From Candidatus Woesebacteria bacterium GW2011_GWF1_31_35 (lineage in GTDB: Bacteria; Patescibacteriota; Microgenomatia; UBA8517): a DNA stretch of 64,000 nucleotides. The notes beneath the pieces are model-generated. The model was not told the DNA's origin. It did not search any database and worked only from the letters and a program-made list of their open reading frames with translations. A program made the position numbers and the translations under genes. The stretch spans positions 1,754 to 65,753 of the forward strand of contig CP011214.1 of the NCBI GenBank assembly GCA_001029755.1, read 5' to 3'. Below are positions 638 through 64,000 of the stretch, in pieces (positions within the stretch are counted from its first letter, which is position 1; every line of letters begins with the position of its first letter).

Positions 638-889
638 TTATTTATAAACTTCTTTTCTATGACCAAGTAATAGAATAGTTATCATTTTACCATCAATATC
701 ATATATCAAACGATAATCACCTATTCTTAATCTAAATGAACCCAATTTAAATTTTGTTAATCGTTTATTACTAAATAGAATTTCCTCTTTAGATATTAAA
801 TCTAATCTTTCAAGAATTTTCCTTTGGGTAGATTTATCTAATTTTTTTAATTGTCTTAATGCTTTTGTTTTGAATTCGTAAGAATACAC
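638..889 (-). CDS. Type II toxin, RelE/ParE (YoeB/RelE-like) family
   Basis: It is an 83 aa basic protein ending ...RLIYDIDGKMITILLLGHRKEVYK, which is typical RelE/ParE fold sequence. It lies immediately downstream of a Phd/YefM-like antitoxin in antitoxin-toxin order. Confidence 0.7.
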   Translation of the reverse strand: MYSYEFKTKALRQLKKLDKSTQRKILERLDLISKEEILFSNKRLTKFKLGSFRLRIGDYRLIYDIDGKMITILLLGHRKEVYK

Positions 890-896
890 AAATTAA

Positions 897-1178
897 TTAT
901 ATACCCAACATTTCTTTAACCACATCTGAAGAATAAGATCTTTTAGATTTTCTAGAAGAAGCAATAGCTTTTAAATAACTTGGACTAGAAAGAGCTTCCA
1001 TGTCCTCAATTAAAGATTCCCATATGTTATTTGGGATCAATACACCAAGAGGTTCCTGATTTCTCATCACTCTTACAAATTTACCTTTATCTTTTGCTCT
1101 TGCAAACAATTTTGTTATTCCTGCTTGAGCTTCCTGAACGGAAGCAAAAGATTCCATCCTAATTAATTGTTGAGTCAT
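897..1178 (-). CDS. Type II antitoxin, Phd/YefM family
   Basis: It is a 93 aa protein with a Phd/YefM-like N-terminus (...FVRVMRNQEPLGVLIPNNIWESLIEDME...). It is 8 bp upstream of the toxin gene. Confidence 0.65.
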   Translation of the reverse strand: MTQQLIRMESFASVQEAQAGITKLFARAKDKGKFVRVMRNQEPLGVLIPNNIWESLIEDMEALSSPSYLKAIASSRKSKRSYSSDVVKEMLGI

Positions 1179-2052: not shown

Positions 2053-3372
2053 TTATTTAGCTATAATTCCTTTGATTTTAAAATAATCTGCAATTGACTT
2101 ATTAATCCAATCACTTTGATCTGATTTTGTTTGTGCATTAGCAACCAATCCAGCTTCTGGTAATTTATTTATGACAACTAATTCATCTTTACCAGAACTT
2201 GAAGCTTCTTTAATTTTTAAAATCATTTGATCAAAAGCTAAACTATAATTTCTTGCAATATAGACATCTCCACCTAAAGTAGAAGTTAAACTAAAAGAAG
2301 AAATAAAAAGAATAAATGAAAACAATAATGTCAATAATTTATTTTGCATTATACCTCTTGCATGCCAAGAAACAATAAAAACAGACATTAGTACTAAAAA
2401 CATTAAAGTAATATCTGACCTATCAGGTGGGAGCCTACCTAATGTTTTAAAGGCAGGGAAAACATAAAGAATACTTGCTATCACCAATAAACTTAAAATT
2501 GATCCTATGTTTAAATATATCTTTTCTTTATCAATATAAATCCTTTTATTAAATTGGCTAAATACGTACGATAAAACTGCAGTTAATGATGAAAGAAAAA
2601 TAATATTTTTAATAATTAAATAATAAAGTAGTTTTGGACCTTCTTGAACAGAATAAAAGATACTTCCTAATATATTCATCGAATCAGATCCTCCACCAAC
2701 TGCTCTTATACTATTTCCAGGTGACAAATAAACTATTAACAGAGAAGTTATTGATGAAATAAACATAATAAGTAAATATTTCTTCGATTTTTTGAAGATG
2801 AATACATAAACTAAACTTCCCAATAGTATTAAATTAACCATTAAACCAAATGTCTCATTTCCTCCGACCGCTAATAATGTAAATAAAAATACTAATAATA
2901 ATTTCTTTGAAGAAAGAGCCAGTAATATAAAAATAATTGGCCAAAGATAAGTTATGGTTCCTGAAAGCCAGTACCAAGTTTCCATTTTGTTAGGTGTAAT
3001 AAAATAAAGAGAAACTAAAGCCATGGATGATAATATATAAAGATAAACATTCTTTAATTTAAGATTTAAAAATGACCTGAAAAATGACAATAATGCGAAA
3101 AATAATAAAGAGAGAGTAATAATTGAAAAAAGAGAGGAATTTCCAGAATTAGAAGAATATGCTCCAAAGAAAGTTTGTAAAAATGTTGAGGTAAATCTTC
3201 CACTCCAAGACAGATACCAACTTAATTGCGCTTTCCAGAAACCTTGACTAAAAACCGTTGATCCATAGGCAAAATCATCAGCAGACATTCTATTAAATGG
3301 AATTATTGAAAAAATTTTTAAAAATCCCATTAAGGCTAATACTGACATTGAAAACCAAGCATATTTTTTCAT
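2053..3372 (-). CDS. Polytopic membrane protein, GT-C-like (acidic ADD motif in first external loop)
   Basis: It is 439 aa with at least 10 predicted hydrophobic helices. The motif ...NRMSADDFAYGS follows the first helix. Confidence 0.45.
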   Translation of the reverse strand: MKKYAWFSMSVLALMGFLKIFSIIPFNRMSADDFAYGSTVFSQGFWKAQLSWYLSWSGRFTSTFLQTFFGAYSSNSGNSSLFSIITLSLLFFALLSFFRSFLNLKLKNVYLYILSSMALVSLYFITPNKMETWYWLSGTITYLWPIIFILLALSSKKLLLVFLFTLLAVGGNETFGLMVNLILLGSLVYVFIFKKSKKYLLIMFISSITSLLIVYLSPGNSIRAVGGGSDSMNILGSIFYSVQEGPKLLYYLIIKNIIFLSSLTAVLSYVFSQFNKRIYIDKEKIYLNIGSILSLLVIASILYVFPAFKTLGRLPPDRSDITLMFLVLMSVFIVSWHARGIMQNKLLTLLFSFILFISSFSLTSTLGGDVYIARNYSLAFDQMILKIKEASSSGKDELVVINKLPEAGLVANAQTKSDQSDWINKSIADYFKIKGIIAK

Positions 3373-51120: not shown

Positions 51121-52080
51121 TTATAATATTTTACCTGCTTTTAAGATTAAAATAATTGCCATAATCATACCTAAAAATGATACATGAGCAAAACTTCTGC
51201 CTGCAATTCTAGCAATACCTTTTTTTGATACAAAAAAACTATCAACCAAAAATACCACCACCAAAAGTCCCACAACACTTAAAGATATTGCCCTAGTTGT
51301 TGCAAATGGAGATATTATAAATTGTTGTATTTTTGATGTAGTAAAAATAGCCTCAACAGTAGAAACAGGTGAAGCTATTGCAATAATCGGAATTGGAGAA
51401 CTAGTTGGAGAAATAGTCGCAGCAATAGTAGGCTTTATTGTTGGTTTAATAGTTGGATTATCATTTATAGGATTGTTGGCAGCTACAGGCTGGGCAATAT
51501 TATCAACATAGGTTGATCCAAAAAATTGAACTATTATAGTTGTATCAACTCCAGCTAAATCTCCTTCAACTACCCCAATCCCAATTTCTTTGTATTTTGA
51601 ATTTAAAATATTTTCCCTATGAGTTGGGGAATTCATCCAAGCATCAACTGCAGAAGAAGCACTACTAAAGTCTCTTGCTAAATTTTCACCAGCGTATCTA
51701 TATCTATAACCAGCACTTGTAAAAAAACTCCAAGGCTGTGTTCCATCTGGAGCTATATGTGCCCAATAATCCTTTATAATCATATCATTTCCCTTAGATT
51801 GGGCAGCTACAGAAAGTGTTCCATTTAATGTTAATGAAGGTAAGCCTGCTTGGGCTCTTTTTTCGTTTGTAAGCCTTATAATTTCATCAGGTGAGATCTG
51901 GGAGGCATATCCTAAGATAGATGGACCCAATTTAGGTATAAAATTTAAAACAGCTTGGAAAAGAATAAAAAATGAGGCTAAAACTAATAAACCACTTGGA
52001 TGTAAAATTTTAGCCTTGTGGTTATTACTTGCTCGAGGCAAAAATAAATGAAGTGTTTTTTCTATAAAATCCATACACAT
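51121..52080 (-). CDS. CAP/SCP/PR-1 domain protein with Pro/Thr-rich linker (PTIKPTIKPTI) and C-terminal TM anchor
   Basis: It carries ...AAQSKGNDMIIKDYWAHIAPDGTQPWSFFTSAGYRYRYAGENLARDFSS...WMNSPTHRENIL. Confidence 0.65.
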   Translation of the reverse strand: MCMDFIEKTLHLFLPRASNNHKAKILHPSGLLVLASFFILFQAVLNFIPKLGPSILGYASQISPDEIIRLTNEKRAQAGLPSLTLNGTLSVAAQSKGNDMIIKDYWAHIAPDGTQPWSFFTSAGYRYRYAGENLARDFSSASSAVDAWMNSPTHRENILNSKYKEIGIGVVEGDLAGVDTTIIVQFFGSTYVDNIAQPVAANNPINDNPTIKPTIKPTIAATISPTSSPIPIIAIASPVSTVEAIFTTSKIQQFIISPFATTRAISLSVVGLLVVVFLVDSFFVSKKGIARIAGRSFAHVSFLGMIMAIILILKAGKIL

Positions 52081-52129: not shown

Positions 52130-53509
52130 TTAGTTATTTTCAAACAAAATTGTTGGAGATGGTTCAGGACTTGGAGACGGACTTAGTGTCGGTGTTGGAA
52201 AAACTTCTGGAATAGGCGTAGGTGATGGACTTGAACTTGATTCAGATTCTACAGTTTGTGTAGAAAAAGAAGAAATTAAATCTTCTTCTGAAAGATTTGT
52301 ATATCCTGGTGTTCCATAATTATTTCCTTCAATATCCCAATATTTAGTACTATTGCAAGCAATATTTGTACAGGTATGCCATCCAGATGATAGATCACTA
52401 TTTCTTTCCATAGACTGTTCGACAGTTGCCGGCGAAGTATGTGTACCAGCAACCCATGACCCCATAGGGGTTTGGTCAATAATATTACCTGAAGCATCCT
52501 TAAGTATTAATTGCTCCCCAGGACTTTTAGTCAAATGTAGACTACTATCAATTTGATCTACTACCAATGAATGACTCAACGCAGATTTATCATCTATTGA
52601 TGCATAATGACTTAGAAGAAAATAACCATTAGCTTCAATCTTTCCATTTAAAATTATTTCGTTAGGGCCAGGACCTGCACCATAAAGTTTCCAGCCCGTT
52701 ATATCAATAACTTCATTAGTAGTATTTCTTAGTTCTATCCATTTATCTAATTCATGTACAGTTGAACCCATCCACATTATTTCATTAATAACAACACTCC
52801 CTATAACATCAGGTGTTGACCAATTACTAGTCGCTGAAAAAGTACTACCCCCAATTACAGCCACATCAGAAAAATAAGCATTTATAGGTTTGATTTGAAA
52901 AAGACCGAATCCTAATAAAAAGTAAATAAGTAACAAATCAATGGGTTTGTTTTTATGCAATTTTTCAGATTCTTCATATTTTTTTTCTACTTCTTTTTCA
53001 ATTGTCTTTTTAATATTTAATAATTCACTAATAATAATGAGAAGGGCAGGTAAAACCACCAAAAGACCAAAACCTAAAGGTTTTTTTATCCAAACAGATA
53101 AATAACCTAAAAAGGGTAAGGAAAAAATAACTTTACCTTTTATTTGAAATGAAGAAATTTCAGCAATATCTTCAATACTATTAGCATCCCCTTTTGTTTT
53201 AAAGACAGTCTCACCATTCTTCTTTTCAACTGCTACCAATCGGTGAGTAATTGATACGTTTGGATCTTCTGCTGAAATATATGTAATAATCTCTCCTTTT
53301 TTTAAAATTTCAGGATCAACTTTTTGAGTAAAAACTACTGAACCTACTTTGATTGCAGGTTCCATCGAACCGGACATGACTCTTAAAACTTGAAAGCTCT
53401 TAATTGGGTTAAAAGCAGTAAAAACCAACAATAAAACTATCGAAATCAAAACAACAGTTAATAACCATTGAAAAATATTAATTATTTTTTTTAATATATT
53501 TTTAAGCAT
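52130..53509 (-). CDS. sipW: SipW-type (archaeal/eukaryotic-type S26) signal peptidase I fused to a C-terminal lamin-tail domain (LTD) and Pro/Ser-rich tail
   Basis: The N-terminus has a TM helix then ...LRVMSGSMEPAIKVGSVVF...ITHRLVAV...GDAN (SipW/Sec11-like Ser/His). The C-terminus has VVINEIMWMGSTVHELDKWIELRNTTNEVIDITGWKLYG (LTD pattern), then SPSPTPIPEVFPTPTLSPSPSPEPSP. Confidence 0.7.
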   Translation of the reverse strand: MLKNILKKIINIFQWLLTVVLISIVLLLVFTAFNPIKSFQVLRVMSGSMEPAIKVGSVVFTQKVDPEILKKGEIITYISAEDPNVSITHRLVAVEKKNGETVFKTKGDANSIEDIAEISSFQIKGKVIFSLPFLGYLSVWIKKPLGFGLLVVLPALLIIISELLNIKKTIEKEVEKKYEESEKLHKNKPIDLLLIYFLLGFGLFQIKPINAYFSDVAVIGGSTFSATSNWSTPDVIGSVVINEIMWMGSTVHELDKWIELRNTTNEVIDITGWKLYGAGPGPNEIILNGKIEANGYFLLSHYASIDDKSALSHSLVVDQIDSSLHLTKSPGEQLILKDASGNIIDQTPMGSWVAGTHTSPATVEQSMERNSDLSSGWHTCTNIACNSTKYWDIEGNNYGTPGYTNLSEEDLISSFSTQTVESESSSSPSPTPIPEVFPTPTLSPSPSPEPSPTILFENN

Positions 53510-53591: not shown

Positions 53592-54227
53592 TTAAGGTGT
53601 TTGTACAAGGCCAAATACCGCATTCATGGTAACACTATCTCCTTGTATACTATTCCCTGCAGTAGTAGGAATTGACCACTCAATTTTAACACTGGCTGTT
53701 GTATTCATTTCCCCAACACTTTCACCAATCATTGGACCAAGTGTATAAGGACCATTGAATTGATCAACAGTACCATTTAAACCAGTATCTACAAAAAAAC
53801 CATTATGATCACCATCATAATAAACACGGAAATTTAAAACTCCAGCAAGATCACTCCAACCAGAAGTTCTATTTAAATCAATTGTTGCATTGCCATTAAT
53901 AGTACCATCATTCGCAATGTCTATTATTTGTACTCTAGTATCACCTGGTTTTAAATTATTTAGACCTGCCTGAGCCATAAAGTTATCATAACCTATCCCA
54001 ATTGTTGTATCCAAATAAGTTCTATAATCAGTACTAGAAATATCAAATCCATCAACCCAATTATAAGTGGCTGATCTTGGATCTTGATCTATCTTAAGAT
54101 CCATAGTTCCAGAAGAGAAAGTGGTTCCAAGAATTGACGCTGTATCACTAAAATAAGCAACTGTAGCAGTTGTTACTCCAGCGATAACCAAAGCAATCAT
54201 TGTTAGACTTAATAATATTTTTTTCAT
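53592..54227 (-). CDS. Secreted TasA/camelysin-like protein with SipW-cognate-class signal peptide
   Basis: The N-terminus MKKILLSLTMIALVIAGVTTATVAYFSDTASILGTTFSSGTMDLKI matches the SipW-cognate signal pattern (..GATGAYFSDTE...NTF.AGTLDL). A strong SD (AAGGAGGTGA) lies upstream. It is adjacent to sipW. Confidence 0.65.
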   Translation of the reverse strand: MKKILLSLTMIALVIAGVTTATVAYFSDTASILGTTFSSGTMDLKIDQDPRSATYNWVDGFDISSTDYRTYLDTTIGIGYDNFMAQAGLNNLKPGDTRVQIIDIANDGTINGNATIDLNRTSGWSDLAGVLNFRVYYDGDHNGFFVDTGLNGTVDQFNGPYTLGPMIGESVGEMNTTASVKIEWSIPTTAGNSIQGDSVTMNAVFGLVQTP

Positions 54228-54440: not shown

Positions 54441-54965
54441 TTATTGTAATCTATATGAAATAAATTGTCTGGGTTCACCAAACATTTGAACAATTACAGT
54501 ACGTGTCTGACCATTTACTACTCCAGTTGCTAAAGCTATTCCAGTTTCTTTGTAACGATTAGAAAGAAGGTTTTGTTTATGAGTAGGTGATGCTAACCAC
54601 GCACCTATTAAAGATCCAGTATCACCATAATCTCTCCCTAAATTTTCTCCAGCTAATCTACCTCTATATCCTGTTGCTAATATAAATTTCCAAGGAGTAG
54701 CCCCAGTTGTTGGATTATTATGAGCCCAATAACCATAGGAAATTAAATCTTGTGCTTTTCGTTGTGCAGCTAAAGTTAATAAATTATTTTTCTTTAAAGC
54801 TAATTGTCCATTTTGGATACGTGTCTGATTTACTTCATTATAAACATTTTCAACAGAAAGACCTGAAGCCTTTACTAAATTGGGTATAGCTAAAAATACA
54901 AATGCAAAAATAAAAATAGCACTTGAGATAATTATGCTTTTAAAAAAGTTATTCTTGTTCATCAA
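54441..54965 (-). CDS. CAP/SCP/PR-1 domain secreted protein
   Basis: It carries ...AAQRKAQDLISYGYWAHNNPTTGATPWKFILATGYRGRLAGENLGRDYGD...WLASPTHKQNLL. It has an N-terminal signal/TM. Confidence 0.65.
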   Translation of the reverse strand: MMNKNNFFKSIIISSAIFIFAFVFLAIPNLVKASGLSVENVYNEVNQTRIQNGQLALKKNNLLTLAAQRKAQDLISYGYWAHNNPTTGATPWKFILATGYRGRLAGENLGRDYGDTGSLIGAWLASPTHKQNLLSNRYKETGIALATGVVNGQTRTVIVQMFGEPRQFISYRLQ

Positions 54966-55276: not shown

Positions 55277-56476
55277 ATGTCAAAACTTGAAAAATTAGTA
55301 GTCACCAAACAATATCTTGATGCCGAAAATAAGTGGGGACAAATACTTAATAATGGAGAAAGTCTTTCAATCCTATTTCCCCCTGTTTCAGATTGCCAAC
55401 GTAGAATTAGCCAATTTATTAGTGAACACAACAATGAATTTCTATTCTCAGAAGTAAACCCCCTTGATCTAGCTACTGAAGAATTAATTGACCTTGAAGC
55501 AAGTTTACTGATTCAAGCTAGGTTATTGTCTGAATTTAAAAAATTCCAAAGTTTTGAATCTTTAATTCATCATTTAGATAAAAACAAACGGCATTTAATA
55601 ATAACCTGTCCACTAGCTGATTTTTTGTTTACTCAAAAAGGCAAACAATATCTATCTTTAATTCAAAAAATTATTTTTCAATATACACCAACTCTTACTT
55701 GTTTTTTAGCATTTGAGACTGACATTATTCACCCTGATAATGCTGAATTGGTACGTAATTACCACATGCTTTTTCAACATATTGGTTATTACCCACTTTA
55801 CTCATCTACTGATACATCCACCTTTATTAATTATCTATGTCTAAAATGGGAAATTAAAATAAAAACAAAGGTTAAACAAGAAATTATTGAAAAATGTGGT
55901 GGATATTTTTGGTTAGTAAAAGAGGCTTTAAGACAAATTCGTGATAATGGTTCTTGGGAGATAAACTCAGAATCTTTCCAATATCGTTTGCAAACAATCG
56001 CCCAATCTTTAAAAGAGAGTGAATATATAACTATCGCCAAAATCTTAAGTAAAAGCCGTGGATTTGATGATGTTCAATTACACAGCAGAAAATATCTACA
56101 AAAGATAGGATTATTAGATAATAAATTCAATTTAACTGTCCCACTTTTAAAAGATACAATAATTAAGCTTGGAGCAAGTAAAAGAAAACTTATACTTATC
56201 AAAAATGAAATCTTTTTAAACCAAGTGCCTGTTAGTAATTTCTTTTCTCGAAAGGAATTCCGCATTATTAAATTACTTTTATCTCGCGAAGGAGAAACTG
56301 TCACTCGTGACGAAATTGCAGATGTAATTTGGTTAATGGATGTTAAGGAAAAATATTCAGAATGGGCAATTGATCAATTAGTTAAAAGATTACGAAATCG
56401 TTTGTCAGAACTTTTAATACCAAAAACAGTATTACGTTCTGTTCGTGGAAAAGGATATTGCTATGTTCAATCATGA
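55277..56476 (+). CDS. Transcriptional regulator with C-terminal OmpR/PhoB-type winged-helix DNA-binding domain and a roughly 300 aa N-terminal domain of unknown (possibly degenerate P-loop-like) fold
   Basis: The C-terminus FSRKEFRIIKLLLSREGETVTRDEIADVIW...AIDQLVKRLRNRL...VRGKGYCY is a trans_reg_C signature. The N-terminal region has no receiver-domain residues and no Walker A motif. Confidence 0.6.
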   Translation: MSKLEKLVVTKQYLDAENKWGQILNNGESLSILFPPVSDCQRRISQFISEHNNEFLFSEVNPLDLATEELIDLEASLLIQARLLSEFKKFQSFESLIHHLDKNKRHLIITCPLADFLFTQKGKQYLSLIQKIIFQYTPTLTCFLAFETDIIHPDNAELVRNYHMLFQHIGYYPLYSSTDTSTFINYLCLKWEIKIKTKVKQEIIEKCGGYFWLVKEALRQIRDNGSWEINSESFQYRLQTIAQSLKESEYITIAKILSKSRGFDDVQLHSRKYLQKIGLLDNKFNLTVPLLKDTIIKLGASKRKLILIKNEIFLNQVPVSNFFSRKEFRIIKLLLSREGETVTRDEIADVIWLMDVKEKYSEWAIDQLVKRLRNRLSELLIPKTVLRSVRGKGYCYVQS

Positions 56477-58457
56477 AATAGAAATAAATATTGACCAAAA
56501 TAAAGAATCGCAAAATGATAGGGGTAATCTTTTTTCTTTATTAAAAAGAAATATATTAATAAATACAATTAAAGAAAACCCTGGCAGTTGTAATTTACCA
56601 GAAGTCGTCGAAAACATATTAAAAGAAACTCTAATTTTTCCCCAAACTGAAAAGGTAGAATTAACAGGAAGTTTGGCCAGATTTGCGATTGGATTTGGTT
56701 CAATGGAAAGACACAATCAAGGAAAAGATGGTGCGAGTAAATTACTAAGAGAGGTTAATATTTCAACAAATAAAAATAATTTTGAAAACAATCCATGGAA
56801 AAACATTATTACTGATCTTTCTGAAAGTGATTTGGATATGGATACTTGTTTTTATTTTAGACCAGGTTATTCATTATTGGATTTATATAATTCATTGGAA
56901 GAAAAACACAAAGATTCTAACAATTTAAAGGTAGAAAAAACAGATATTATTAGCACTTTTTCATTTAATCTAATGGATAACTTTCAACTAGCCATTACTC
57001 ATGAACCAATTATCACTAACCCTGGACTTAATAAATTAACTATTGATATATCTTACAAACCAGTAAATGAAGATTATAAACAAATCATGCATATTGATGT
57101 TAGTGAATCCCCGATAGATGCAGAAAAAGCAAGAAGACAAAAAAGACATGGTGGCAGAACTACAAAATCGCAAGATAGAGGTCGTCTAACATTAAAAATA
57201 GAAAATAAAAAAATAATTTATGAGGTAACAAATGAAGCTAAAATGGCACTTAAGGGGAGAGAGAGAATTAGTACTTCTGGAAAAAATATGAAAGATATTT
57301 TTGAATTATCACTGCGTTCCTTGCGAATAAGATTAATTCATACACCTGATGATCTTTCTATTAAAATAAATCATCTTTTCCCACTTTTCGATTCTAAAAG
57401 TTTATTTTCAATTAGAAAAAATGTTCAAGAATATGTATCAACAAATAATAACAAGTTGACTACAAAAGAAATGTCTCTTCCTTTAAAAGACTTAATTTTA
57501 TGTTTTAACTACGATCCATATATCACATTACATTTCTTGCAAGATAGTAATTTTTATTTATTATTTCCAGGACTAAATAATATTACTTCCAAGGGTTGGC
57601 GTAATTTATATTTGAGCGATTGGTTAAATCTAACAACCGTTGATGGTAATTTTTTAGAACCTGACAAAAGATCGTTAAATAGTTTAGTTAAAGATCAAGA
57701 TGAATATAGTAAGAGAAATTTATCCAATGGATTCATTTCAATACTACACGCAATTAGTGAATTAAAATATCCTAAAAAAGAATTTGATTTAATGAATTCT
57801 TTTAATTACTTTGATACATCAAAGATAGTTGAATTTAATCAAGAAAGAATAAAATCAAATAAACCTACTAAAGCTATTTCTTACCTTTTAAATTTCTTTA
57901 ATGGTGGTCTAACTGAAATAGAAATTCAAAGACTTTATAATTTATATTCAGATAAAAAAATTGAGACTGAAGAATTTAGAAAAGTATTGCGTGAACTTAA
58001 ATTGGAATCAAAAATAGATAAACAATTACGTACAGTAAACATCCAAGGAAGAAAAAGATCAGTAATCTTATATGGTTTAAGAACTGTAAAATCACAAAAC
58101 CCGTTACAATTAGATAATTTAATAGATAAAACTAGTGAAGTTACAAAGCATCCATGTTTAGATCGTGCTAATGAATACTTGATTAAAAACTTTAAAAATT
58201 TAGAATTTAATGATAAAACCATAACTTTAAAAAGTATTCATAACTTTCTAAAAAGTAATGGAGTATTAACCTTAGAAGCGCTTAGATCATTTTCTTACAA
58301 AGATTTTTCAGATTTTTATAATAAATATAATAACGAAGAAAAAAATAAATTAAATCAAGGAAACTTTCAGATTTATTGCAGAGGCCTTCAAATTATTTCT
58401 GAAGATGTTTTAAGATATCCACTATTTTCAAATTATTTACGTTTAGATAAAAAATAG
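56445..58457 (+). CDS. Large hypothetical protein (670 aa), translationally coupled to the upstream regulator
   Basis: It overlaps the regulator by 32 bp. It is soluble and K/N-rich. GS...SDLDMD segments are at best a weak nucleotidyltransferase-like hint. No family was recognised. Confidence 0.45.
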   Translation: MEKDIAMFNHEIEINIDQNKESQNDRGNLFSLLKRNILINTIKENPGSCNLPEVVENILKETLIFPQTEKVELTGSLARFAIGFGSMERHNQGKDGASKLLREVNISTNKNNFENNPWKNIITDLSESDLDMDTCFYFRPGYSLLDLYNSLEEKHKDSNNLKVEKTDIISTFSFNLMDNFQLAITHEPIITNPGLNKLTIDISYKPVNEDYKQIMHIDVSESPIDAEKARRQKRHGGRTTKSQDRGRLTLKIENKKIIYEVTNEAKMALKGRERISTSGKNMKDIFELSLRSLRIRLIHTPDDLSIKINHLFPLFDSKSLFSIRKNVQEYVSTNNNKLTTKEMSLPLKDLILCFNYDPYITLHFLQDSNFYLLFPGLNNITSKGWRNLYLSDWLNLTTVDGNFLEPDKRSLNSLVKDQDEYSKRNLSNGFISILHAISELKYPKKEFDLMNSFNYFDTSKIVEFNQERIKSNKPTKAISYLLNFFNGGLTEIEIQRLYNLYSDKKIETEEFRKVLRELKLESKIDKQLRTVNIQGRKRSVILYGLRTVKSQNPLQLDNLIDKTSEVTKHPCLDRANEYLIKNFKNLEFNDKTITLKSIHNFLKSNGVLTLEALRSFSYKDFSDFYNKYNNEEKNKLNQGNFQIYCRGLQIISEDVLRYPLFSNYLRLDKK

Positions 58458-59347
58458 AAATAAAGAACTGGGAGAACAATTATTAGAGTAATAATTCCAA
58501 GTGTTATTTTAGTTCTATCCTTCGCAAATTTAACTACCTTTCCAATAATTCCATTGGGAGTTTCTGTTGCAGATGGATTATTAATAGTTTCAAGATTTGC
58601 TTCCTCACCCAACACCTGTCCAGTACCTTCTTTAGGAAGTACTGTAACCTTACCAGATCCATTTTGAGATGGAACAGGTGTTATAACTGTAACAGTTGTA
58701 CTTCCATCCCCTACTAAACTTGATGAATTATCTGCTTTATCTAAAGCTCTTAATGCATAAAAGTAAGTTTTGTTAAAATCTGGTGTATGTTCATCATAGG
58801 TCATATCAGAATTTGAAGATCCTGATATTCTAGCAATTTCATGTTGGTTATCTGCTGAAAAGTCTACAGTCTCTCCTCTATAAATAACTACTTTTGAAAA
58901 ATCAGTGTCATTAGGATTTATCCAATGAATTTTAAAATCATCACTATCAATTGTATCTTTATAATAACCAGTTACAGGTGATGGTCCTGAAATATCATAG
59001 AAAGAACTTGTTTCATCTGTAGCACCAGAAATTTCTACTTTAAAATAGTATTTTGTTTGATCACTAACTTGTGAACTTGTAACTTCAACTTGGCCAGAAG
59101 CTCCATTTATAATTGGACCTAATGTTACATAACTTCCACCCTCTTTTCTGTAATAAAACTGAGCTGAAATACTTGTTGGATCACTAGTTACTGCAGAATA
59201 TGAAAGTTTAAAATTATTTGTATTAAAGTAACTTGGAAGTTTACTTATTGAAACCTCAGGTGTTATTTCTGCAACAGCTGGTCTAACCAAAAGTCCTAGA
59301 CCTAATAATAAAGAGATTAAAAATGTTATAACTTTACTTTTTTGCAT
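58433..59347 (-). CDS. Secreted, C-terminally membrane-anchored protein with two Fn3-like beta-sandwich domains
   Basis: It has the signal peptide MQKSKVITFLISLLLGLGLLVRPAVA, Fn3-like segments (...FKIHWINPNDTDFSKVVIYRGETVDF...), and a C-terminal TM helix plus KRK. Confidence 0.5.
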   Translation of the reverse strand: MQKSKVITFLISLLLGLGLLVRPAVAEITPEVSISKLPSYFNTNNFKLSYSAVTSDPTSISAQFYYRKEGGSYVTLGPIINGASGQVEVTSSQVSDQTKYYFKVEISGATDETSSFYDISGPSPVTGYYKDTIDSDDFKIHWINPNDTDFSKVVIYRGETVDFSADNQHEIARISGSSNSDMTYDEHTPDFNKTYFYALRALDKADNSSSLVGDGSTTVTVITPVPSQNGSGKVTVLPKEGTGQVLGEEANLETINNPSATETPNGIIGKVVKFAKDRTKITLGIITLIIVLPVLYFYFLSKRK

Positions 59348-62300
59348 ATTTTCTATTTATATAAATCCCTATACCCAACATTGTAAGTGCCATTATAATC
59401 CATAGAGTATCACTTCCTGTATCGGGTAATTCTATAGAAGCTCCTAAAACTTGTCCCAATAGATTTCCACCATAACCTATTCCTGTTCCTATAACTACAC
59501 TTGAATTAGCTACATTACATTCAATAGTTTCTAAACTTTCTTCTCTTTCTTCTGACCCAATTGTTCCTTTACAAGTTGCAAAGTTTTTATATGATGATCC
59601 TTGAAATACACTTGATAACACTTTTGCTTTGTAGGTAATTTTAATTTCCTGACCACTTATTATGTCTCCAATACTCCATTTCAAAACGCCTGAGGTTATT
59701 GTCGGATCTGAGGTTGACACATCATTTATTAAGCTAGATCCTGAAACATATTCAAAACCACCAGGTAAAATATCAATTACTTCCAAGTTATTAATTGTTA
59801 CATTACCAGTATTTTTAACTTTTAAAGTATAAATTACTTCATCGCCAATTCTTGCTCCAAATAATTTATCATTACTTTTTTCAATCTTAACCTCTTTTGA
59901 TGGTACAAATCCAAAATCTGCTGCATCAAAGTTTGCCCCAGAGACAACTGCAATTGGACCATATGGATCGGTTGTAGTTGGTGCATATCCTGTAGGTACT
60001 GTTAAATCAACAACATCAACCCAATAATTACCTGGTAAAAGATTGGTAAATAGATATATACCTGATCCATCCGTTGTAGTTGATCCTACTAATATATCAG
60101 CCTCACCTAAATCTTGAATTCCATCACCATTATCTAAATAAAGATCAGTCTGAACTCCAGAAATTCCAGGTTCTCCAACATCTTGAATTCCATTACCATT
60201 ATAATCAGTCCAAACAAAGTCTCCAATTTCTGCAAGTTTGAAATTACCAAAATTTTGCACTACATTGTTATTATTTTGAGGTACATTAACAAAGTGACAA
60301 TTAGGATCTGTTGGATATGTTTGTGTCCAACCTGTCTTTAATTCCTCACAAACTTTATATGTAGCTGGGAATAGATGATTAAACCAATACCATCCTAAAT
60401 CAGAGCCAATAGTTGTGTCAGTTGTGGTTGTTTTTACTAACTTTGTATAATCGTTTGTCCCATTATCCCAACCATATAAATTAATAGCCCAATTACCAAG
60501 TGGATTGTCATCAATATTTTCAATTCCATTTCCATCTTTATCTTCCCATTTATATCCGTGAATTGAACCATTTGGAGTATTTATAAATGTACAAATTATA
60601 GTTTCACCTTCTCCTAGAATTATTCCATTTACACTATCTAAATTATCATATGTACCTTTAAAAGTTTCTCCTAATTTACAATAAGCGGTAACTAAATCGT
60701 ATCCATCTTGTTTAGATTCAATTGCCAAATATTCTCCAGTTTTAATATCATCAGTTATATTTTCTCCATTCAAATCAGTTGTAAGTGGAGATGGATCTTC
60801 TGTGTCAGTACTGTTTCCATTTATATCAATAACCCAACCAACACCCGGTGTTTGATCTGAAGTAGTAGTAATATAACCATCTTCATCAATAATTTTCTTT
60901 ACTTCAATTTTTCCTAAATCTCTCGTATTTGTAACTGTACAAGTTTTATTTTCTCCCAAAGCTATGGATCCATCGCAATCATCTGAGAATGATGATGTAT
61001 ATCCTGTGACAACATCCTCGGAAACAATATAACTTCCTACATCCAAAGAAGCTGTTGTTCCAGCTGAAGATCCTGGGAAAGAATCCTCACTTACATTGTC
61101 TCCATCTATATACATTGTAAAGTCGCCAGATACTTTTGCACTACTTCCTACAACATTTTTGACAACTGTTAAATGTGGAGTTTTGTCATCATTATGAATT
61201 GTACAAGTAACATTTTCTCCTTCATCTAGTGTTAAACTTCCACCTAATACACTAGGACACTTACTATCACCTGTAATATTTACAAAATTATATCCTTCCA
61301 AAACTGTCTCATTTAGAGAGATTGAAGTATTAGCATCAACTGTAGTTGTGGATCCTGAAAGTACCAAATTTCCTCCAACCATTAAACTAAAATCATCTGG
61401 ATTTGCGTCCCCACCATTGTCATTTGTTACATCTTTAATAAGTGTAATTGTTGGGGCTATATCATTATTAGTTATCGTGCATGTTGCAGTTCCACCATTT
61501 GGAATAACTACATCAGTACAGTTATTATATCCGGTTGAATATCCTGAAACTGATGGCTCAACTACTGAATATGTTCCGGCATTAACATTTAAATCATTCT
61601 GACCGTCAGATTCAAATGCAACAGCTGTTCCACCATTTACTTTAAATGTAAAATTACCATATGTTTCATTTCCACCATTATCTTTTACGAGAACTTTTTT
61701 AACAATTAAGGTAGCTGATTGATCATCATTTGTAATAGTACAAGTTACATTACTATTAGCAGAAAGGGTTAAATTATCATTTACTAAATTTCCACCAGTA
61801 CATGACCAAGAACTTGCAGAATATCCAACTGGACCTGATTCTGAAAGAGAATATTGTTTATTTGCTAAAATTTTACCAGTAATTGAAGGTCCATTTCCTT
61901 GAACTTTTAATGAGTTAGAATCATATATTGCAGAGAGTTCCCAATCAGAAGGTTCTTTGGTTCCACCACTATTATTGTTTACAACTTTTTCTAAAGTTAA
62001 AGTTGCTGTGTCAATTGCATTACAAAGAGTAATGTTAGTATCAACATCTTTATTTACTGTGACTGTTACGGGAAGCGTAATTCCTTCAGGAGTATTACAA
62101 GAATATCCTGTACTCCCTGTAGTAAACCATCCAACAAAATGATAATCAGAAACATCATCATTCTCGGTAACAGTGTGGGTTACTCCAGTTATAGTAGTTT
62201 CAATGCCACTTACAGTAGAGCCCATGCTATACGCTTGACTTGTGTCAACTTTAAAAGAAAAACCTAAAGTATTAGCTTGACTATTACCACCTTCAAATGT

Positions 62301-64000
62301 GTTGTCTCCATCACTATCAACTTTTTTATTAACTGTTACACTTCCAGTATCTCGAGTATTTGTAAATGTACAAGTTCCACCACTTTCTGTAACATCTAAA
62401 GAAGCAGTTGAACCTACAAATGTAGGACAAACTCCACCAGTTGAAGTTAATGTGTATCCTAATACAGAACTTGTTTCCTCAACTGTATATGATCCTGTAT
62501 TAAGTAAGGCACTATCTTCATCATGTAAACCACCTTGAACAAGATTTGTTATATTTTTGAAAATTGTAAATGTCCAATCAGAATCATTTGCAGTGCCTCC
62601 AATAAATATTTTATCAAAGAAAATATTCCCTGTTTTTCGAGTATTGTAGATTGTACAAGTAACATTATCTCCTGCAGAAAGATTTACTTCTCCATTAGCA
62701 CAATTTGAAGAATATGATATGTTGTAATCAGAAAGGCTTGTATCAGTTCCGGCAGTTTCACTAACTTGATATTGACCGGCGTTTAATATTAATGATCCTG
62801 TTGTACCTCCATCACCAACATTGGAAGCATAAACAGTAGATCCTATTAGAAGATTGAATTTACCAGGATCATTTGATGGAGTTAAATCTTTTATCACAGT
62901 TAATTTTGGATATTTAAAATTATTGAATGTACAAGTTACTGTTTCTCCCAAAGAAAGTGAAATATTATTAATAGAACTACCATCATTACAGGTTGCTGAT
63001 GTTAAATCCCAACCAGTGAGTTCATCTTCAACCAATGAATAATTCCCCGCTGAGAGTGGGCCACTATCATATGGTGTATCTAAATCATTTAATTGAAATG
63101 AATCAACTAAATTAGTAGATTTTGAGAGTGTAAAATCAAATTTTTGAGGATCTTCCAAAGGATTTGTCACTTTATCTACAATTATTTTTCCTGGAATATC
63201 ATCATTTGTAATAGTACAAATAATATCTTGTCCAGGATTTAAAGTAACTGTTCCACCAAGACTAGTTGGGCAACCAGTTCCTGCAATAGAAGTGAAAGAA
63301 TAACCAGCAAGTCCTGCCTCATTAATAGCATATTCCTTATTTGCATCAACTGAATACTTTTGTCCAGAATTTGCAGCTACCCCACCAATAGTTAGACCAA
63401 AATCATTAACTCCTGCAGTTCCACCATTATCTTTAATTACATTTTTAATTAAAGTAATAGTTGGGGCAATATCATCATTTGTAATAGTGCATGATTTAGT
63501 ATCTCCTAATCCAAGAGTGATTGATCCATTAGAAGCACAATTACCACTAATTGTCCCTGTATATCCTTCCTGATCTGTTTCAGAAATAATATAGGTACCT
63601 ACATTAAATCCATTTTCAATTCCACTTATTACACCAGTGTTATCAACAAAAAGTGGGAAATCACTAATTTCTTTGTTTCCACCATTGTCATTAACAACAA
63701 CTTTTATAACCGTCAATTTTGGTTGAATGTCGTTATTTGTAATAGTACAAGTTGTTATTTGATCAGTAACCACAGTAACATTTGTACAATTATCATAAGT
63801 AGTTGCATAACCAGAAACACCCGGTTCAATCACACTATAAGTTCCAGGAACAACTGTTAAATCATTTGTTCCACCTGTTTCAAATGCAATTAAACTTCCT
63901 CCATTTACTTGGAATGAAAAATCAGAGGCAACTTTTGTACCCCCGTTATTATTATTAACCACTTTAGTAACTCTAAGTGTTCCTTGACTATGTTTATTGT
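59334..64000 (-). CDS. Giant LPXTG-anchored surface protein (>1540 aa; N-terminus outside the window) built from more than 12 repeated roughly 100 aa prealbumin/SpaA-like two-Cys domains plus a DUF11-type domain
   Basis: The C-terminus ...ELPDTGSDTLWIIMALTMLGIGIYINRKYAKK is an LPXTG motif plus TM plus basic tail. The repeats carry K-rich first strands (TLIKNVIKDNGG / TVIKVVVNDNGG) and C-x15-20-CTITNDD ends. Near the C-terminus VKIEKSNDKLFGARIGDEVIYTLKVKNTGNVTINNLEVIDILPGGFEYV is DUF11-like. The ORF is open to the window end. Confidence 0.75.
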   Translation of the reverse strand, partial: NKHSQGTLRVTKVVNNNNGGTKVASDFSFQVNGGSLIAFETGGTNDLTVVPGTYSVIEPGVSGYATTYDNCTNVTVVTDQITTCTITNNDIQPKLTVIKVVVNDNGGNKEISDFPLFVDNTGVISGIENGFNVGTYIISETDQEGYTGTISGNCASNGSITLGLGDTKSCTITNDDIAPTITLIKNVIKDNGGTAGVNDFGLTIGGVAANSGQKYSVDANKEYAINEAGLAGYSFTSIAGTGCPTSLGGTVTLNPGQDIICTITNDDIPGKIIVDKVTNPLEDPQKFDFTLSKSTNLVDSFQLNDLDTPYDSGPLSAGNYSLVEDELTGWDLTSATCNDGSSINNISLSLGETVTCTFNNFKYPKLTVIKDLTPSNDPGKFNLLIGSTVYASNVGDGGTTGSLILNAGQYQVSETAGTDTSLSDYNISYSSNCANGEVNLSAGDNVTCTIYNTRKTGNIFFDKIFIGGTANDSDWTFTIFKNITNLVQGGLHDEDSALLNTGSYTVEETSSVLGYTLTSTGGVCPTFVGSTASLDVTESGGTCTFTNTRDTGSVTVNKKVDSDGDNTFEGGNSQANTLGFSFKVDTSQAYSMGSTVSGIETTITGVTHTVTENDDVSDYHFVGWFTTGSTGYSCNTPEGITLPVTVTVNKDVDTNITLCNAIDTATLTLEKVVNNNSGGTKEPSDWELSAIYDSNSLKVQGNGPSITGKILANKQYSLSESGPVGYSASSWSCTGGNLVNDNLTLSANSNVTCTITNDDQSATLIVKKVLVKDNGGNETYGNFTFKVNGGTAVAFESDGQNDLNVNAGTYSVVEPSVSGYSTGYNNCTDVVIPNGGTATCTITNNDIAPTITLIKDVTNDNGGDANPDDFSLMVGGNLVLSGSTTTVDANTSISLNETVLEGYNFVNITGDSKCPSVLGGSLTLDEGENVTCTIHNDDKTPHLTVVKNVVGSSAKVSGDFTMYIDGDNVSEDSFPGSSAGTTASLDVGSYIVSEDVVTGYTSSFSDDCDGSIALGENKTCTVTNTRDLGKIEVKKIIDEDGYITTTSDQTPGVGWVIDINGNSTDTEDPSPLTTDLNGENITDDIKTGEYLAIESKQDGYDLVTAYCKLGETFKGTYDNLDSVNGIILGEGETIICTFINTPNGSIHGYKWEDKDGNGIENIDDNPLGNWAINLYGWDNGTNDYTKLVKTTTTDTTIGSDLGWYWFNHLFPATYKVCEELKTGWTQTYPTDPNCHFVNVPQNNNNVVQNFGNFKLAEIGDFVWTDYNGNGIQDVGEPGISGVQTDLYLDNGDGIQDLGEADILVGSTTTDGSGIYLFTNLLPGNYWVDVVDLTVPTGYAPTTTDPYGPIAVVSGANFDAADFGFVPSKEVKIEKSNDKLFGARIGDEVIYTLKVKNTGNVTINNLEVIDILPGGFEYVSGSSLINDVSTSDPTITSGVLKWSIGDIISGQEIKITYKAKVLSSVFQGSSYKNFATCKGTIGSEEREESLETIECNVANSSVVIGTGIGYGGNLLGQVLGASIELPDTGSDTLWIIMALTMLGIGIYINRKYAKK

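What the first reader, a model, noticed from the sequence alone, without database searches (positions are those of the whole stretch)
58433..64000. Giant Ser/Thr/Asn-rich LPXTG surface protein made of repeated two-cysteine prealbumin-like domains: likely adhesin and candidate substrate of the PMT-like glycosyltransferases
The >1540 aa minus-strand ORF ends in LPDTG plus a TM helix plus a basic tail (sortase sorting signal). Its N-terminus continues past the window. It contains at least 12 tandem roughly 100 aa units. Each unit starts with a Lys-rich strand ([TV]LIK.V[IV].DNGG) and ends C-x15-20-C-T-[IF]-[TN]-N-DD. This is consistent with the established SpaA-type prealbumin fold, in which a Lys-Asn intramolecular isopeptide forms, plus a possible disulfide. 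The protein also has a DUF11-type domain near the anchor. Composition is extremely rich in Thr, Ser, Asn and Gly. PMT-family GT-C enzymes O-mannosylate Ser/Thr-rich secreted proteins, so this protein and the adjacent Fn3-like protein are plausible acceptors for the upstream glycosylation locus.
Basis: partly seen in the sequence, partly recalled or inferred. Interest (0 to 1): 0.55.

Follow-up and report, generated by a model that had tools for sequence, protein, structure and literature searches.

The report
Sortase-anchored giant stalk adhesin
This is three quarters of the gene for a 2,047-residue cell-surface fibre protein of an ultra-small groundwater bacterium (Candidatus Woesebacteria), built from 14 probably self-locking beta-sandwich domains and processed by a sortase encoded next to it; it is a clear example of a known kind of adhesin, and nothing ties it specifically to the nearby sugar-transferase genes.

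Summary
Window 59334-63998 (minus strand) encodes the last 1,554 residues of a 2,047-aa protein. An identical contig supplies the missing start, with a signal peptide. NCBI names the identical protein 'hypothetical protein, Candidatus Woesebacteria'.

Layout: a Pro/Thr/Glu/Ser-rich linker, two beta-sandwich tip domains of no known family, 14 CnaB-type units (Pfam SpaA_2, 1e-77), one SdrD_B domain, one CLIPPER/DUF11 domain, then LPDTG, a membrane helix and a basic tail.

Every unit keeps the Lys/Glu/Asn(Asp) isopeptide triad and a cysteine pair. These are the five most conserved columns across 1,672 homologous units. A two-unit AlphaFold model (pLDDT 98) matches isopeptide-bearing pilins.

The glycosylation-substrate idea has no support beyond adjacency. 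PMT-like genes flank 0 of 13 and 1 of 67 related loci.

Extra finding: the adjacent Fn3-like membrane protein always travels with a sortase (58/58 loci) and an LPXTG protein (40/40). It is often fused in-frame behind the sorting signal.

Verdict: a new member of a known kind, of modest interest.

The parts
59334..63998 (-). C-terminal 1,554 residues (aa 494-2047) plus the stop codon of the 2,047-aa surface protein. The first 493 aa lie beyond the window end.
   Evidence: Identical to L001 2134-8277. Identical to NCBI 'hypothetical protein A2422_02770, Candidatus Woesebacteria bacterium RIFOXYC1_FULL_31_51' (P0001).
60279..63989 (-). Stalk: 13 tandem CnaB-type beta-sandwich units (units 2-14, aa 497-1733). 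Each carries an invariant Lys (first strand), Glu (Y-x-V-x-E) and Asn (C-T-I-x-N; Asp in unit 8), plus a Cys pair. Unit borders in nt: 63729-63989, 63471-63728, 63198-63470, 62913-63197, 62637-62912, 62352-62636, 62004-62351, 61722-62003, 61461-61721, 61185-61460, 60921-61184, 60573-60920, 60279-60572.
   Evidence: Alignment; coordinates. Pfam gives 8 SpaA_2 stretches and 1 SpaA_4 stretch. My reading is that the second SdrD_B stretch is unit 14.
63198..63728 (-). Units 3-4 (aa 584-760), the stretch that was modelled.
   Evidence: AlphaFold2 gives mean pLDDT 98.0 and pTM 0.84, with two all-beta domains. Foldseek PDB top hits are isopeptide-bearing pilins and adhesins: 3B2M, 7VCR, 6FWV, 6M7C, 1D2O.
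59964..60272 (-). SdrD_B-type domain (aa 1736-1838) with D-x-N-G-N-G-x-x-D type loops. It has no Lys/Glu/Asn triad.
   Evidence: Pfam PF17210 at 2.6e-24. The only PDB sequence match is S. aureus SdrD, 10ps_A, 4e-15.
59565..59888 (-). CLIPPER/DUF11 domain (aa 1864-1971), a CnaA-like fold. Candidate residues are Lys in VKIEKS, Asp in VIDILP and Asn in CNVANS. A further Cys pair sits at aa 1969 and 1987, the second just outside this domain.
   Evidence: PF01345 at 4e-13, PF24346 at 9e-7 and TIGR01451 at 1e-12. A weak alignment to 9IFR places the Asp of VIDILP opposite an Asp of 9IFR that I take, by position counting, to be the catalytic Asp748. The triad assignment is inferred.
59442..59456 (-). 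G-Q-V-L-G motif four residues upstream of the sorting signal. It forms an extended signal [QE]VLGA[ST]x[ES]-LPxTG.
   Evidence: Present in about 30 of the 34 homologues that have a C-terminal LPXTG, and in all related cassette loci inspected.
59334..59429 (-). Cell-wall sorting signal: LPDTG (59415-59429), hydrophobic helix (59358-59405), basic tail NRKYAKK (59337-59357) and the stop codon.
   Evidence: It is the only LPXTG-type C-terminus among the window's ORFs.
58433..59347 (-). Partner gene (304 aa). It has a signal peptide and two beta-rich domains, the second with an Fn3-like W..P.D...Y...Y.Y.lRA.D..N.S pattern. An acidic linker carries G-Q-V-L-G-E-E, followed by a C-terminal membrane helix. 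There is no LPXTG. Its start overlaps the adhesin stop by 14 nt.
   Evidence: No Pfam or NCBIfam family. Always found with a sortase and an LPXTG protein. Often fused behind the sorting signal.

Best explanation
The ORF encodes a sortase-processed fibrillar surface protein of a Candidatus Woesebacteria bacterium (Patescibacteria/CPR), most probably an adhesin.

Proposed sequence of events:
1. The protein is exported by its Sec signal peptide.
2. It folds into a rod of about 18 beta-sandwich domains.
3. In each of the 14 CnaB-type stalk units, the first-strand Lys and the last-strand Asn (Asp in unit 8) are expected to form a spontaneous Glu-assisted isopeptide bond.
4. A disulfide is expected to clamp the final hairpin of each unit. 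Together these make the stalk resistant to pulling, heat and proteases.
5. A calcium-type SdrD_B domain and a CLIPPER domain form the base.
6. The sortase encoded 47 nt upstream cleaves LPDT|G and transfers the protein to the cell envelope. By analogy this would be to peptidoglycan.
7. The variable two-domain tip, carried on a Pro/Thr/Glu/Ser-rich linker, would bind the target.
8. The co-transcribed Fn3-like membrane protein belongs to the same conserved three-gene cassette. Its role is unknown.

Shown here: the domain families, conservation of the triad and cysteines, the fold, the sorting signal, the adjacent sortase and the conserved cassette.

Inferred: bond formation, wall linkage, adhesion and the target.
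For: - Full gene, signal peptide and operon layout.
- Pfam and NCBIfam domain calls.
- 14 of 14 units keep Lys, Glu, Asn/Asp and the Cys pair.
- Across 1,672 units from 120 homologues, these are the five most conserved columns: K 96%, E 99%, N 96%, C 97% and C 97%.
- The two-unit model has pLDDT 98. K9 and K95 lie in first strands, N84 and N175 in last strands.
- Foldseek top hits are Spy0128, PitA, the TIE protein, SpaC and the Cna B repeat.
- SpaA_2 is predicted to be a Lys/Glu/Asn isopeptide domain, and disulfides are prevalent in that family (PMC12617251).
- The sortase passes Pfam (89.5 bits against 26.6) and TIGR01076 (69.6 against 39.35). It has the IFAHS, TLQTC and KRLIV motifs.
- Six of six CPR relatives keep adhesin, partner and sortase together.
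- The tip module differs between orthologues that are 69% identical, as expected for a ligand-binding end.
Against:
- No curated LPXTG-anchor model was reported. TIGR01167 and PF00746 are absent, which listed families only down to E 0.01.
- The sortase reaches no class-specific cut-off (best is class C, 70.7 bits against 160). Its acceptor substrate is therefore unknown.
- The tip domains match no adhesive family (Pfam E > 0.04). The tip model is only moderately confident (pLDDT 65), and its matches are generic Ig-like or macroglobulin-like folds with TM-score below 0.3.
- A disulfide requires an oxidising envelope and an oxidoreductase. I did not look for one.
Confidence: 0.8

Rival explanations
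1. The protein is an O-glycoprotein whose Ser/Thr residues are mannosylated by one or more of the ten or so PMT/PMT_2 GT-C enzymes in the neighbouring locus. It is compatible with the anchoring model and adds to it.
For: - At least 10 PMT/PMT_2-type genes lie in window 1-40,000, together with GT2, GT1, a GT2-GtrA fusion, a Wzx-type flippase and dTDP-sugar genes.
- An epimerase gene overlaps the sortase start by 17 nt.
- The adhesin has a Pro/Thr/Glu/Ser-rich linker at aa 33-125: Thr 23%, Pro 15%, Ser 12%.
- Partner orthologues carry poly-Thr linkers.
- From general knowledge: actinobacterial Pmt modifies Thr/Pro-rich stretches of Sec substrates.
Against: - Adjacency is not conserved: 0 of 13 related genome loci and 1 of 67 related metagenome loci have a PMT homologue in the flanks.
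- From general knowledge, PF13231/PF02366 also cover ArnT-like and polysaccharide-building GT-C enzymes. A locus with a flippase, Rml genes and many GT-C paralogues looks more like a cell-envelope glycan locus.
- Most Thr, Ser and Asn of the stalk sit in folded beta-strands.
- N-x-S/T sequons occur at the chance level, 36 against 36.4 +/- 4.8.
Confidence: 0.2
2. The protein is a pilus subunit, polymerised head-to-tail by a class C-like sortase through a pilin-motif lysine.
For: - The sortase's best class-level scores and closest solved relatives are class C and class D enzymes.
- A YPK tripeptide occurs once, at aa 856-858, at the unit 5/6 junction.
- The structural neighbours of the stalk units are pilins.
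Against: - The class C score is far below its cut-off (70.7 against 160).
- The protein is 2,047 aa with 18 domains. From general knowledge, known pilins have 2-4 domains.
- The cassette holds only one LPXTG protein, and the window holds only one.
- The YPK lies inside a normal inter-unit linker. I did not check whether it is conserved.
Confidence: 0.05
3. The adhesin is not joined to peptidoglycan. Instead the sortase hands it to, or assembles it on, the Fn3-like membrane partner, so that the partner is the anchor or platform.
For: - Every partner locus has a sortase immediately downstream (58 of 58 loci with enough sequence).
- Every partner locus has an LPXTG protein immediately upstream or fused: 40 of 40, of which 13 are fused.
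- About 45% of the best 150 partner relatives sit at the C-terminus of giant proteins (my count).
- Both proteins share the G-x-[VI]-L-G motif.
Against: - Among seven aligned partners the only invariant Lys is K130. At 80% conservation across 22 partners, no Lys column appears at all.
- Co-occurrence shows functional linkage. It does not show the chemistry.
- From the literature, CPR bacteria generally make peptidoglycan, which is the usual acceptor.
Confidence: 0.15
4. It is a structural envelope fibre, such as a spacer, sheath or S-layer-like coat, with no specific ligand.
For: - The tip domains have no recognisable binding family.
- The family is very large in CPR: 2,440 proteins at E <= 1e-20 among the candidates scored.
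Against: - The tip module is swapped between close orthologues while the stalk is kept. This fits diversifying ligand recognition.
- The tip-stalk-anchor layout is the defining architecture of fibrillar adhesins (PMC12617251).
Confidence: 0.2

Closest known systems
Gram-positive fibrillar adhesins / MSCRAMMs with B-repeat stalks (S. aureus SdrD, Cna)
   Same: - Same order of parts: signal peptide, distal non-repeat region, stalk of tandem CnaB-type beta-sandwiches, LPXTG signal.
- One domain is a true SdrD_B match (PF17210, 2.6e-24). SdrD is the only PDB sequence hit.
- The Cna B repeat 1D2O is a structural neighbour.
   Different: - The stalk units belong to SpaA_2/SpaA_4, not Cna_B.
- Each unit carries a cysteine pair.
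- The tip is not an N2-N3 'dock, lock and latch' domain.
- The host is a CPR bacterium.
- The sortase cannot be assigned to a class.
- An obligate Fn3-like partner gene is present.
Pfam SpaA_2 (PF19403), a predicted CnaB-like isopeptide domain (Costa et al. 2025, PMC12617251)
   Same: - The HMM score is far above the cut-off.
- The residue types of the triad (Lys, Glu, Asn) and their order in the domain are the same as in the family.
- Disulfides are reported as prevalent in the family.
   Different: - That survey used AlphaFold DB, which is limited to 1,280 aa. Its main text does not mention Patescibacteria. Giant CPR proteins such as this one were therefore outside its sample.
- No SpaA_2 structure has been solved. 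No PDB sequence hit covers the stalk.
CLIPPER-stalk fibrillar adhesin B9T28_05395 of Acinetobacter silvestris (PDB 9IFR)
   Same: - A giant protein (2,129 aa) laid out as tip, stalk and anchor.
- Its CLIPPER domain carries both an isopeptide and a disulfide.
   Different: - There CLIPPER is the repeating stalk unit and the anchor is OmpA-like, in a Gram-negative bacterium.
- Here there is a single CLIPPER domain next to an LPXTG anchor, and the sequence similarity is weak (E 0.14).
Streptococcus pyogenes major pilin Spy0128 and other isopeptide pilins (PitA, PitB, SpaC, GBS52)
   Same: They are the best structural neighbours of the stalk units (Foldseek probability 1.00). They share the Lys-Asn isopeptide with a catalytic Glu.
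   Different: - TM-scores are low (0.33-0.55) and sequence identity is 11-19%.
- Those proteins are short subunits polymerised by class C sortases.
- This protein is a single long chain.
Actinobacterial Pmt (GT39) substrates
   Same: It is a secreted Sec substrate with a Thr/Pro-rich linker. PMT-family genes are present in the genome.
   Different: No evidence of modification exists. The gene neighbourhood is not conserved.

Membership tests
LPXTG sortase substrate | N-terminal Sec signal peptide | tested here: met
   MKEKLLRRLVSAISTFSLLFNSLFTPLAVLA|QE in the full ORF recovered from the identical contig. This was read by eye; no predictor was run.
LPXTG sortase substrate | C-terminal LPXTG, then a hydrophobic helix, then a basic tail | tested here: met
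   LPDTG, then SDT-LWIIMALTMLGIGIYI, then NRKYAKK-stop.
LPXTG sortase substrate | Match to a curated anchor model (TIGR01167 or PF00746) | tested here: not met
   Neither model is listed at E <= 0.01. These are short-motif models, and the motif itself is plainly present.
LPXTG sortase substrate | A sortase encoded in the genome | tested here: met
   A 208-aa sortase lies 47 nt upstream on the same strand (L001 1460-2086, outside the window). Pfam 89.5 bits against 26.6; TIGR01076 69.6 against 39.35.
LPXTG sortase substrate | Cleavage at T|G and covalent linkage to the wall | not testable with these tools
   Needs biochemistry.
SpaA_2 / CnaB-type isopeptide domain | Family HMM above the gathering score | tested here: met
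   PF19403 at 257.2 bits against 25, 8 stretches. PF24514 (SpaA_4) at 35.2 against 27.3.
SpaA_2 / CnaB-type isopeptide domain | Beta-sandwich (transthyretin/prealbumin-like) fold | tested here: met
   pLDDT 98, 8 strands per unit. Nearest solved folds are CnaB-type pilin and adhesin domains.
SpaA_2 / CnaB-type isopeptide domain | Lys in the first strand, catalytic Glu, and Asn/Asp in the last strand | tested here: met
   14 of 14 units, with unit 8 using Asp. K 96%, E 99% and N 96% across 1,672 homologous units. Invariant in the 27-sequence two-unit alignment.
SpaA_2 / CnaB-type isopeptide domain | Side chains within bonding distance, and the bond actually formed | not testable with these tools
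   Model coordinates are not returned, and Isopeptor or mass spectrometry would be needed.
Disulfide-clamped isopeptide domain | A conserved Cys pair placed to bridge | tested here: inconclusive
   Both Cys are 97% conserved. They flank the last hairpin: C64 follows strand 56-62 and C80 lies in strand 77-86. The S-S distance and the redox machinery were not assessed.
CLIPPER / DUF11 (CnaA-like isopeptide domain) | Family HMM above the cut-off | tested here: met
   PF01345 at 50 bits against 24.6. TIGR01451 at 47.9 against 24.
CLIPPER / DUF11 (CnaA-like isopeptide domain) | Lys/Asp/Asn triad | tested here: inconclusive
   The Asp of VIDILP aligns with an Asp of 9IFR that I take, by position counting, to be Asp748. 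The Lys and Asn candidates were assigned by eye. Costa et al. note that not all DUF11 domains keep the triad.
Fibrillar adhesin (tip-stalk-anchor) | A repeat stalk plus a surface anchor | tested here: met
Fibrillar adhesin (tip-stalk-anchor) | A recognisable adhesive domain, or demonstrated binding | tested here: not met
   The tip (aa 126-400) has no Pfam or NCBIfam family. Only generic Ig-like structural matches were found.
Class C (pilin-polymerising) sortase system | Sortase reaches the class C cut-off, and two or more LPXTG pilins with a pilin motif are present | tested here: not met
   70.7 bits against 160. Only one LPXTG protein is in the cassette.
PMT (GT39) protein O-mannosylation substrate | Demonstrated glycan on Ser/Thr, or conserved genetic linkage to a Pmt | tested here: not met
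   Linkage is absent in 13 of 13 and 66 of 67 related loci. The modification itself cannot be tested here.

The most novel reading that the evidence does not exclude
The adhesin is one leg of a CPR-wide three-part sorting module that has not been described: a giant LPXTG protein, an Fn3-like membrane protein and a sortase.

The LPXTG signal in this module is often internal. In 13 of 40 metagenome loci, and in about 45% of the best partner relatives, the 300-aa partner ectodomain is translated in-frame behind the sorting signal, a membrane helix, a basic loop and a second signal-like helix. Both halves carry a G-x-[VI]-L-G motif.

On this reading the sortase splits a pro-protein. The partner then acts as a dedicated docking platform, or as the covalent acceptor for the fibre, rather than being a bystander.
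Probability: 0.2. Interest if true: 0.6.

Novelty: new member of a known kind. Interest (0 to 1): 0.33.

Why it matters
CPR/Patescibacteria are ultra-small bacteria. The cultivated ones live attached to host cells, and in Saccharibacteria that growth needs several adhesins (PMC10633639).

A 6.1-kb gene for a covalently reinforced fibre is a large investment for such a small genome. It is a concrete candidate for host or surface attachment in Woesebacteria.

The domain families involved are already known, so the protein itself teaches little that is new. It does show that SpaA_2-type stalks with both an isopeptide triad and a cysteine pair are heavily used in CPR. The published AlphaFold-based survey could not sample this group because of its 1,280-aa limit.

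The conserved partner-sortase pairing could be a useful handle for finding sorted proteins in CPR genomes.

Tried and rejected
- **Tip domain.** The model was only moderately confident (pLDDT 65). Its PDB matches were generic Ig, macroglobulin or integrin-type sandwiches with TM-score below 0.3. No function could be assigned.
- **PDB sequence search.** The full protein found only SdrD, over the SdrD_B domain.
- **Genome scan.** The GTDB species-representative scan found relatives at 32-45% identity but not this genome itself. The organism name comes from NCBI's label on the identical protein.
- **Upstream context.** A second contig look-up with the full protein returned the same contig, which ends 2.1 kb upstream of the gene. 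Nothing beyond the epimerase could be seen.
- **Partner alignment.** The first partner alignment (A3) was too diverse for a collection scan. A closer three-sequence alignment (A4) worked.
- **N-glycosylation.** I considered this because of the Asn/Thr richness. Sequons are at the chance level.
- **Thioester domain at the tip.** I considered this because of Cys296 and Gln364. No family or fold match supports it.
- **Pilus reading.** Rejected for the reasons given under rival explanations.
- **Literature.** Searches for sortase or LPXTG in CPR returned only passing mentions.

Full report
**The observation**

The minus strand of the window is open from 63998 to a stop at 59334-59336. This gives 1,554 residues that end in LPDTG, a 16-residue hydrophobic stretch and NRKYAKK.

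The window has 29% G+C. The protein contains 28 cysteines in 14 pairs spaced 12-29 residues apart.

Against the other long ORFs of the window, it has 2.7-fold more Thr, 4-fold more Cys, 1.65-1.8-fold more Gly, Asn and Asp, and half the Lys.

Pfam finds SpaA_2 (PF19403; 8 stretches, E 1e-77), SpaA_4, SdrD_B (2 stretches), DUF11/CLIPPER, CLIPPER_2 and SpaA. NCBIfam finds TIGR01451. The description is therefore correct and far beyond chance.

**Recovering the whole gene and its organism**

I looked up the neighbouring 304-aa protein by exact sequence. This returned a 229.6-kb ENA contig (L001) that matches the window without a single mismatch over 15,568 nt and runs 3.6 kb past the window end.

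The full protein has 2,047 residues and a typical signal peptide. The identical sequence is in NCBI as 'hypothetical protein A2422_02770 [Candidatus Woesebacteria bacterium RIFOXYC1_FULL_31_51]' (P0001). The organism is thus a member of the Microgenomates group of CPR/Patescibacteria.

Directly upstream, 47 nt away on the same strand, lies a 208-aa sortase gene. An epimerase gene overlaps the sortase start by 17 nt. The 304-aa gene overlaps the adhesin stop by 14 nt.

The sortase passes the Pfam and general TIGR01076 cut-offs but no class cut-off. It carries the His (IFAHS), Cys (TLQTC) and Arg (KRLIV) motifs. Its closest solved relatives are class D and class C enzymes, at E around 1e-10.

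**Anatomy (residues of the full protein)**

| Residues | Feature |
|---|---|
| 1-32 | Signal peptide |
| 33-125 | Linker: Thr 23%, Glu 17%, Pro 15%, Ser 12% |
| 126-395 | Two beta-sandwich domains with no Pfam or NCBIfam family |
| 396-1733 | Fourteen CnaB-type units |
| 1736-1838 | SdrD_B domain |
| 1864-1971 | CLIPPER domain |
| 2008-2012 | GQVLG motif |
| 2017-2047 | Sorting signal |

The units are old duplicates, 20-54% identical to one another with a mean of 35%.

**The stalk units**

The alignment of the 14 units shows an invariant Lys in the first strand and an invariant Glu in a Y-x-V-x-E strand followed by G-Y. It also shows a Cys shortly after that, and a second Cys opening the last strand, C-T-[IF]-x-N. 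Unit 8 has Asp in place of the Asn.

I built an HMM from ten of the units and searched it against 120 homologous proteins. It found 1,672 units. The five most conserved columns are exactly these positions: Lys 96%, Glu 99%, Asn 96%, Cys 97% and Cys 97%.

An AlphaFold2 model of units 3-4, built from a 27-sequence alignment, has mean pLDDT 98.0 and pTM 0.84. It shows two all-beta domains. The conserved Lys lies in the first strand of each and the Asn in the last.

Foldseek against the PDB returns, at probability 1.00, proteins known to carry intramolecular isopeptide bonds (that they do is general knowledge, not something one search shows). They include:
- the S. pyogenes major pilin Spy0128 (3B2M);
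- PitA and PitB;
- the B. anthracis TIE protein (TMq 0.55);
- the SpaC C-terminal fragment;
- GBS52;
- the Cna B repeat.

Costa et al. 2025 (PMC12617251) list SpaA_2 among the families predicted to hold a Lys/Glu/Asn isopeptide. They also report that disulfides are prevalent in SpaA_2, SpaA_3 and SpaA_4.

I could not measure the side-chain distances themselves.

**The base and the tip**

The SdrD_B domain lacks the triad and has the usual Asp/Asn/Gly loops. It is the only part with a PDB sequence relative, SdrD.

In the CLIPPER domain, the Asp of VIDILP aligns with an Asp of 9IFR that I take, by position counting, to be the catalytic Asp. The similarity is weak (E 0.14), so its triad is only a suggestion.

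The first tip subdomain (TDKADYAPTD...) is shared by most homologues. The second is replaced by unrelated Cys-rich modules even in an orthologue that is 69% identical in the stalk (P0002). This is what one expects of the ligand-binding end of an adhesin.

Its model (pLDDT 65) gives only generic Ig-like matches.

**How widespread**

There are 2,440 proteins at E <= 1e-20 among the candidates scored. Among those that carry a source name, most come from CPR lineages: Woese-, Davies-, Gottesman-, Kerfeld-, Moranii- and Portnoybacteria, WWE3 and CPR1. Some come from Actinomycetota, Clostridia and archaea. Most are about 1,500-2,700 aa long.

The genome scan found relatives in Davies-, Collier-, Gottesman-, Dojka- and Saccharibacteria and in Actinomycetota.

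**The glycosylation idea**

The window does hold a striking glycan locus:
- at least ten PMT/PMT_2-type GT-C genes;
- several GT2 and GT1 genes;
- a GT2-GtrA fusion;
- a Wzx-type flippase;
- dTDP-sugar genes.

This locus is separated from the adhesin operon by CAP-domain, LTD and camelysin-like genes. A pair of opposite-strand genes, one of them a regulator, also lies between them.

No PMT homologue lies within 8 kb of the 13 related genome loci. Only one of 67 related metagenome loci has one within 9 kb.

The idea is not excluded, since GT-C enzymes act in trans and the N-terminal linker looks like a classical acceptor. But adjacency is the only evidence, and that adjacency is not conserved.

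**The partner protein (found in passing)**

The 304-aa protein has a signal peptide and two beta-rich domains. The second has an Fn3-like sequence pattern. An acidic linker and a C-terminal membrane helix follow. It has no LPXTG and no Pfam or NCBIfam family.

Gene linkage:
- In six of six CPR relatives from the genome scan it lies between the adhesin and a sortase.
- A metagenome scan seeded only with partner sequences gave 67 loci.
- A sortase follows immediately on the same strand in 58 of 58 loci with at least 700 nt downstream.
- An LPXTG protein precedes it in 40 of 40 loci with at least 2 kb upstream.
- In 13 of those 40 the two are one open reading frame under the standard code.

Further evidence of fusion:
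- 18 of 120 adhesin homologues carry the partner behind LPXTG, a helix, a basic loop and a second signal-like helix.
- By my count, about 45% of the best 150 of 625 partner relatives sit at the C-terminus of proteins of 700-3,000 aa.

Adhesins carry [QE]VLGA[ST]x[ES] directly before LPxTG. Partners carry G-x-[VI]-L-G-[EDQ]-[EA] in their juxtamembrane linker. I have no explanation for this shared motif.

**Verdict**

The adhesin function remains an inference from architecture. The Pmt-substrate idea remains unsupported.

The protein is a new, unannotated member of a known class: a fibrillar adhesin with an isopeptide-type stalk. The conserved sortase-partner module is the only part a specialist might find unexpected.

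Noticed in passing
window 58433-59347 (-); loci L005-L007, L013-L015, L019-L085: The Fn3-like membrane protein next to the adhesin forms an obligate cassette with a sortase (58/58 loci) and an LPXTG protein (40/40 loci). In 13 of those 40 loci it is fused in-frame behind the sorting signal. It shares a G-x-[VI]-L-G motif with the adhesin. It has no Pfam or NCBIfam family. It has 625 relatives among cluster representatives at E <= 0.001.
   Followed up: yes
window 1-50800 (-): A very large envelope-glycan locus. It holds at least ten PMT/PMT_2-type GT-C paralogues and several similar-sized membrane ORFs with no family. It also holds GT2, GT1, a GT2-GtrA fusion, methyltransferases, a Wzx-type flippase and dTDP-sugar (Rml-like) genes.
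   Followed up: partly
window 54441-54965 (-) and 51121-52080 (-): Two CAP/SCP-domain secreted proteins lie beside the adhesin cassette. A CAP homologue also lies within 9 kb of the cassette in 18 of 67 related loci, and in L006.
   Followed up: partly
window 53592-54227 (-) and 52130-53509 (-): Two further secreted or membrane proteins. One is a camelysin/TasA-like protein (faint Peptidase_M73 hit) with an ...AYFSDTAS... N-terminus. The other is a lamin-tail-domain (LTD) protein with a Pro/Ser/Thr-rich C-terminus.
   Followed up: no
window 55277-56476 (+) and 56445-58457 (+): A plus-strand gene pair lies between the adhesin cassette and the glycan locus. One is a 399-aa protein whose only hit is a C-terminal OmpR/PhoB-type Trans_reg_C domain, with no receiver domain found. 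The other is a 670-aa ORF with no family. The 3' end of the second overlaps the 3' end of the partner gene by 25 nt.
   Followed up: no
full protein aa 240-395 (outside the window; L001 about 2850-3320) compared with P0002: The second tip subdomain is exchanged for an unrelated Cys-rich module in an orthologue whose stalk is 69% identical. Only a few of the 120 homologues share this tip version: P0077 and P0059 in full, P0047 and P0090 in part.
   Followed up: partly
P0004 (homologue, 2,275 aa): One homologue carries a sortase domain (PF04203) fused at its own C-terminus.
   Followed up: no
window about 638-1178 (-), equal to L002 19338-19878: A PhdYeFM antitoxin / ParE toxin pair sits at the far end of the glycan locus.
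   Followed up: no
whole window: Proteins of this window occur with identical sequence in 73-102 blocks of the assembly collection. Many of those blocks hold contigs of 0.2-1 Mb, and the samples include Rifle-aquifer assemblies. Even so, the exact peptide patterns found no copy in the GTDB species-representative genomes.
   Followed up: no
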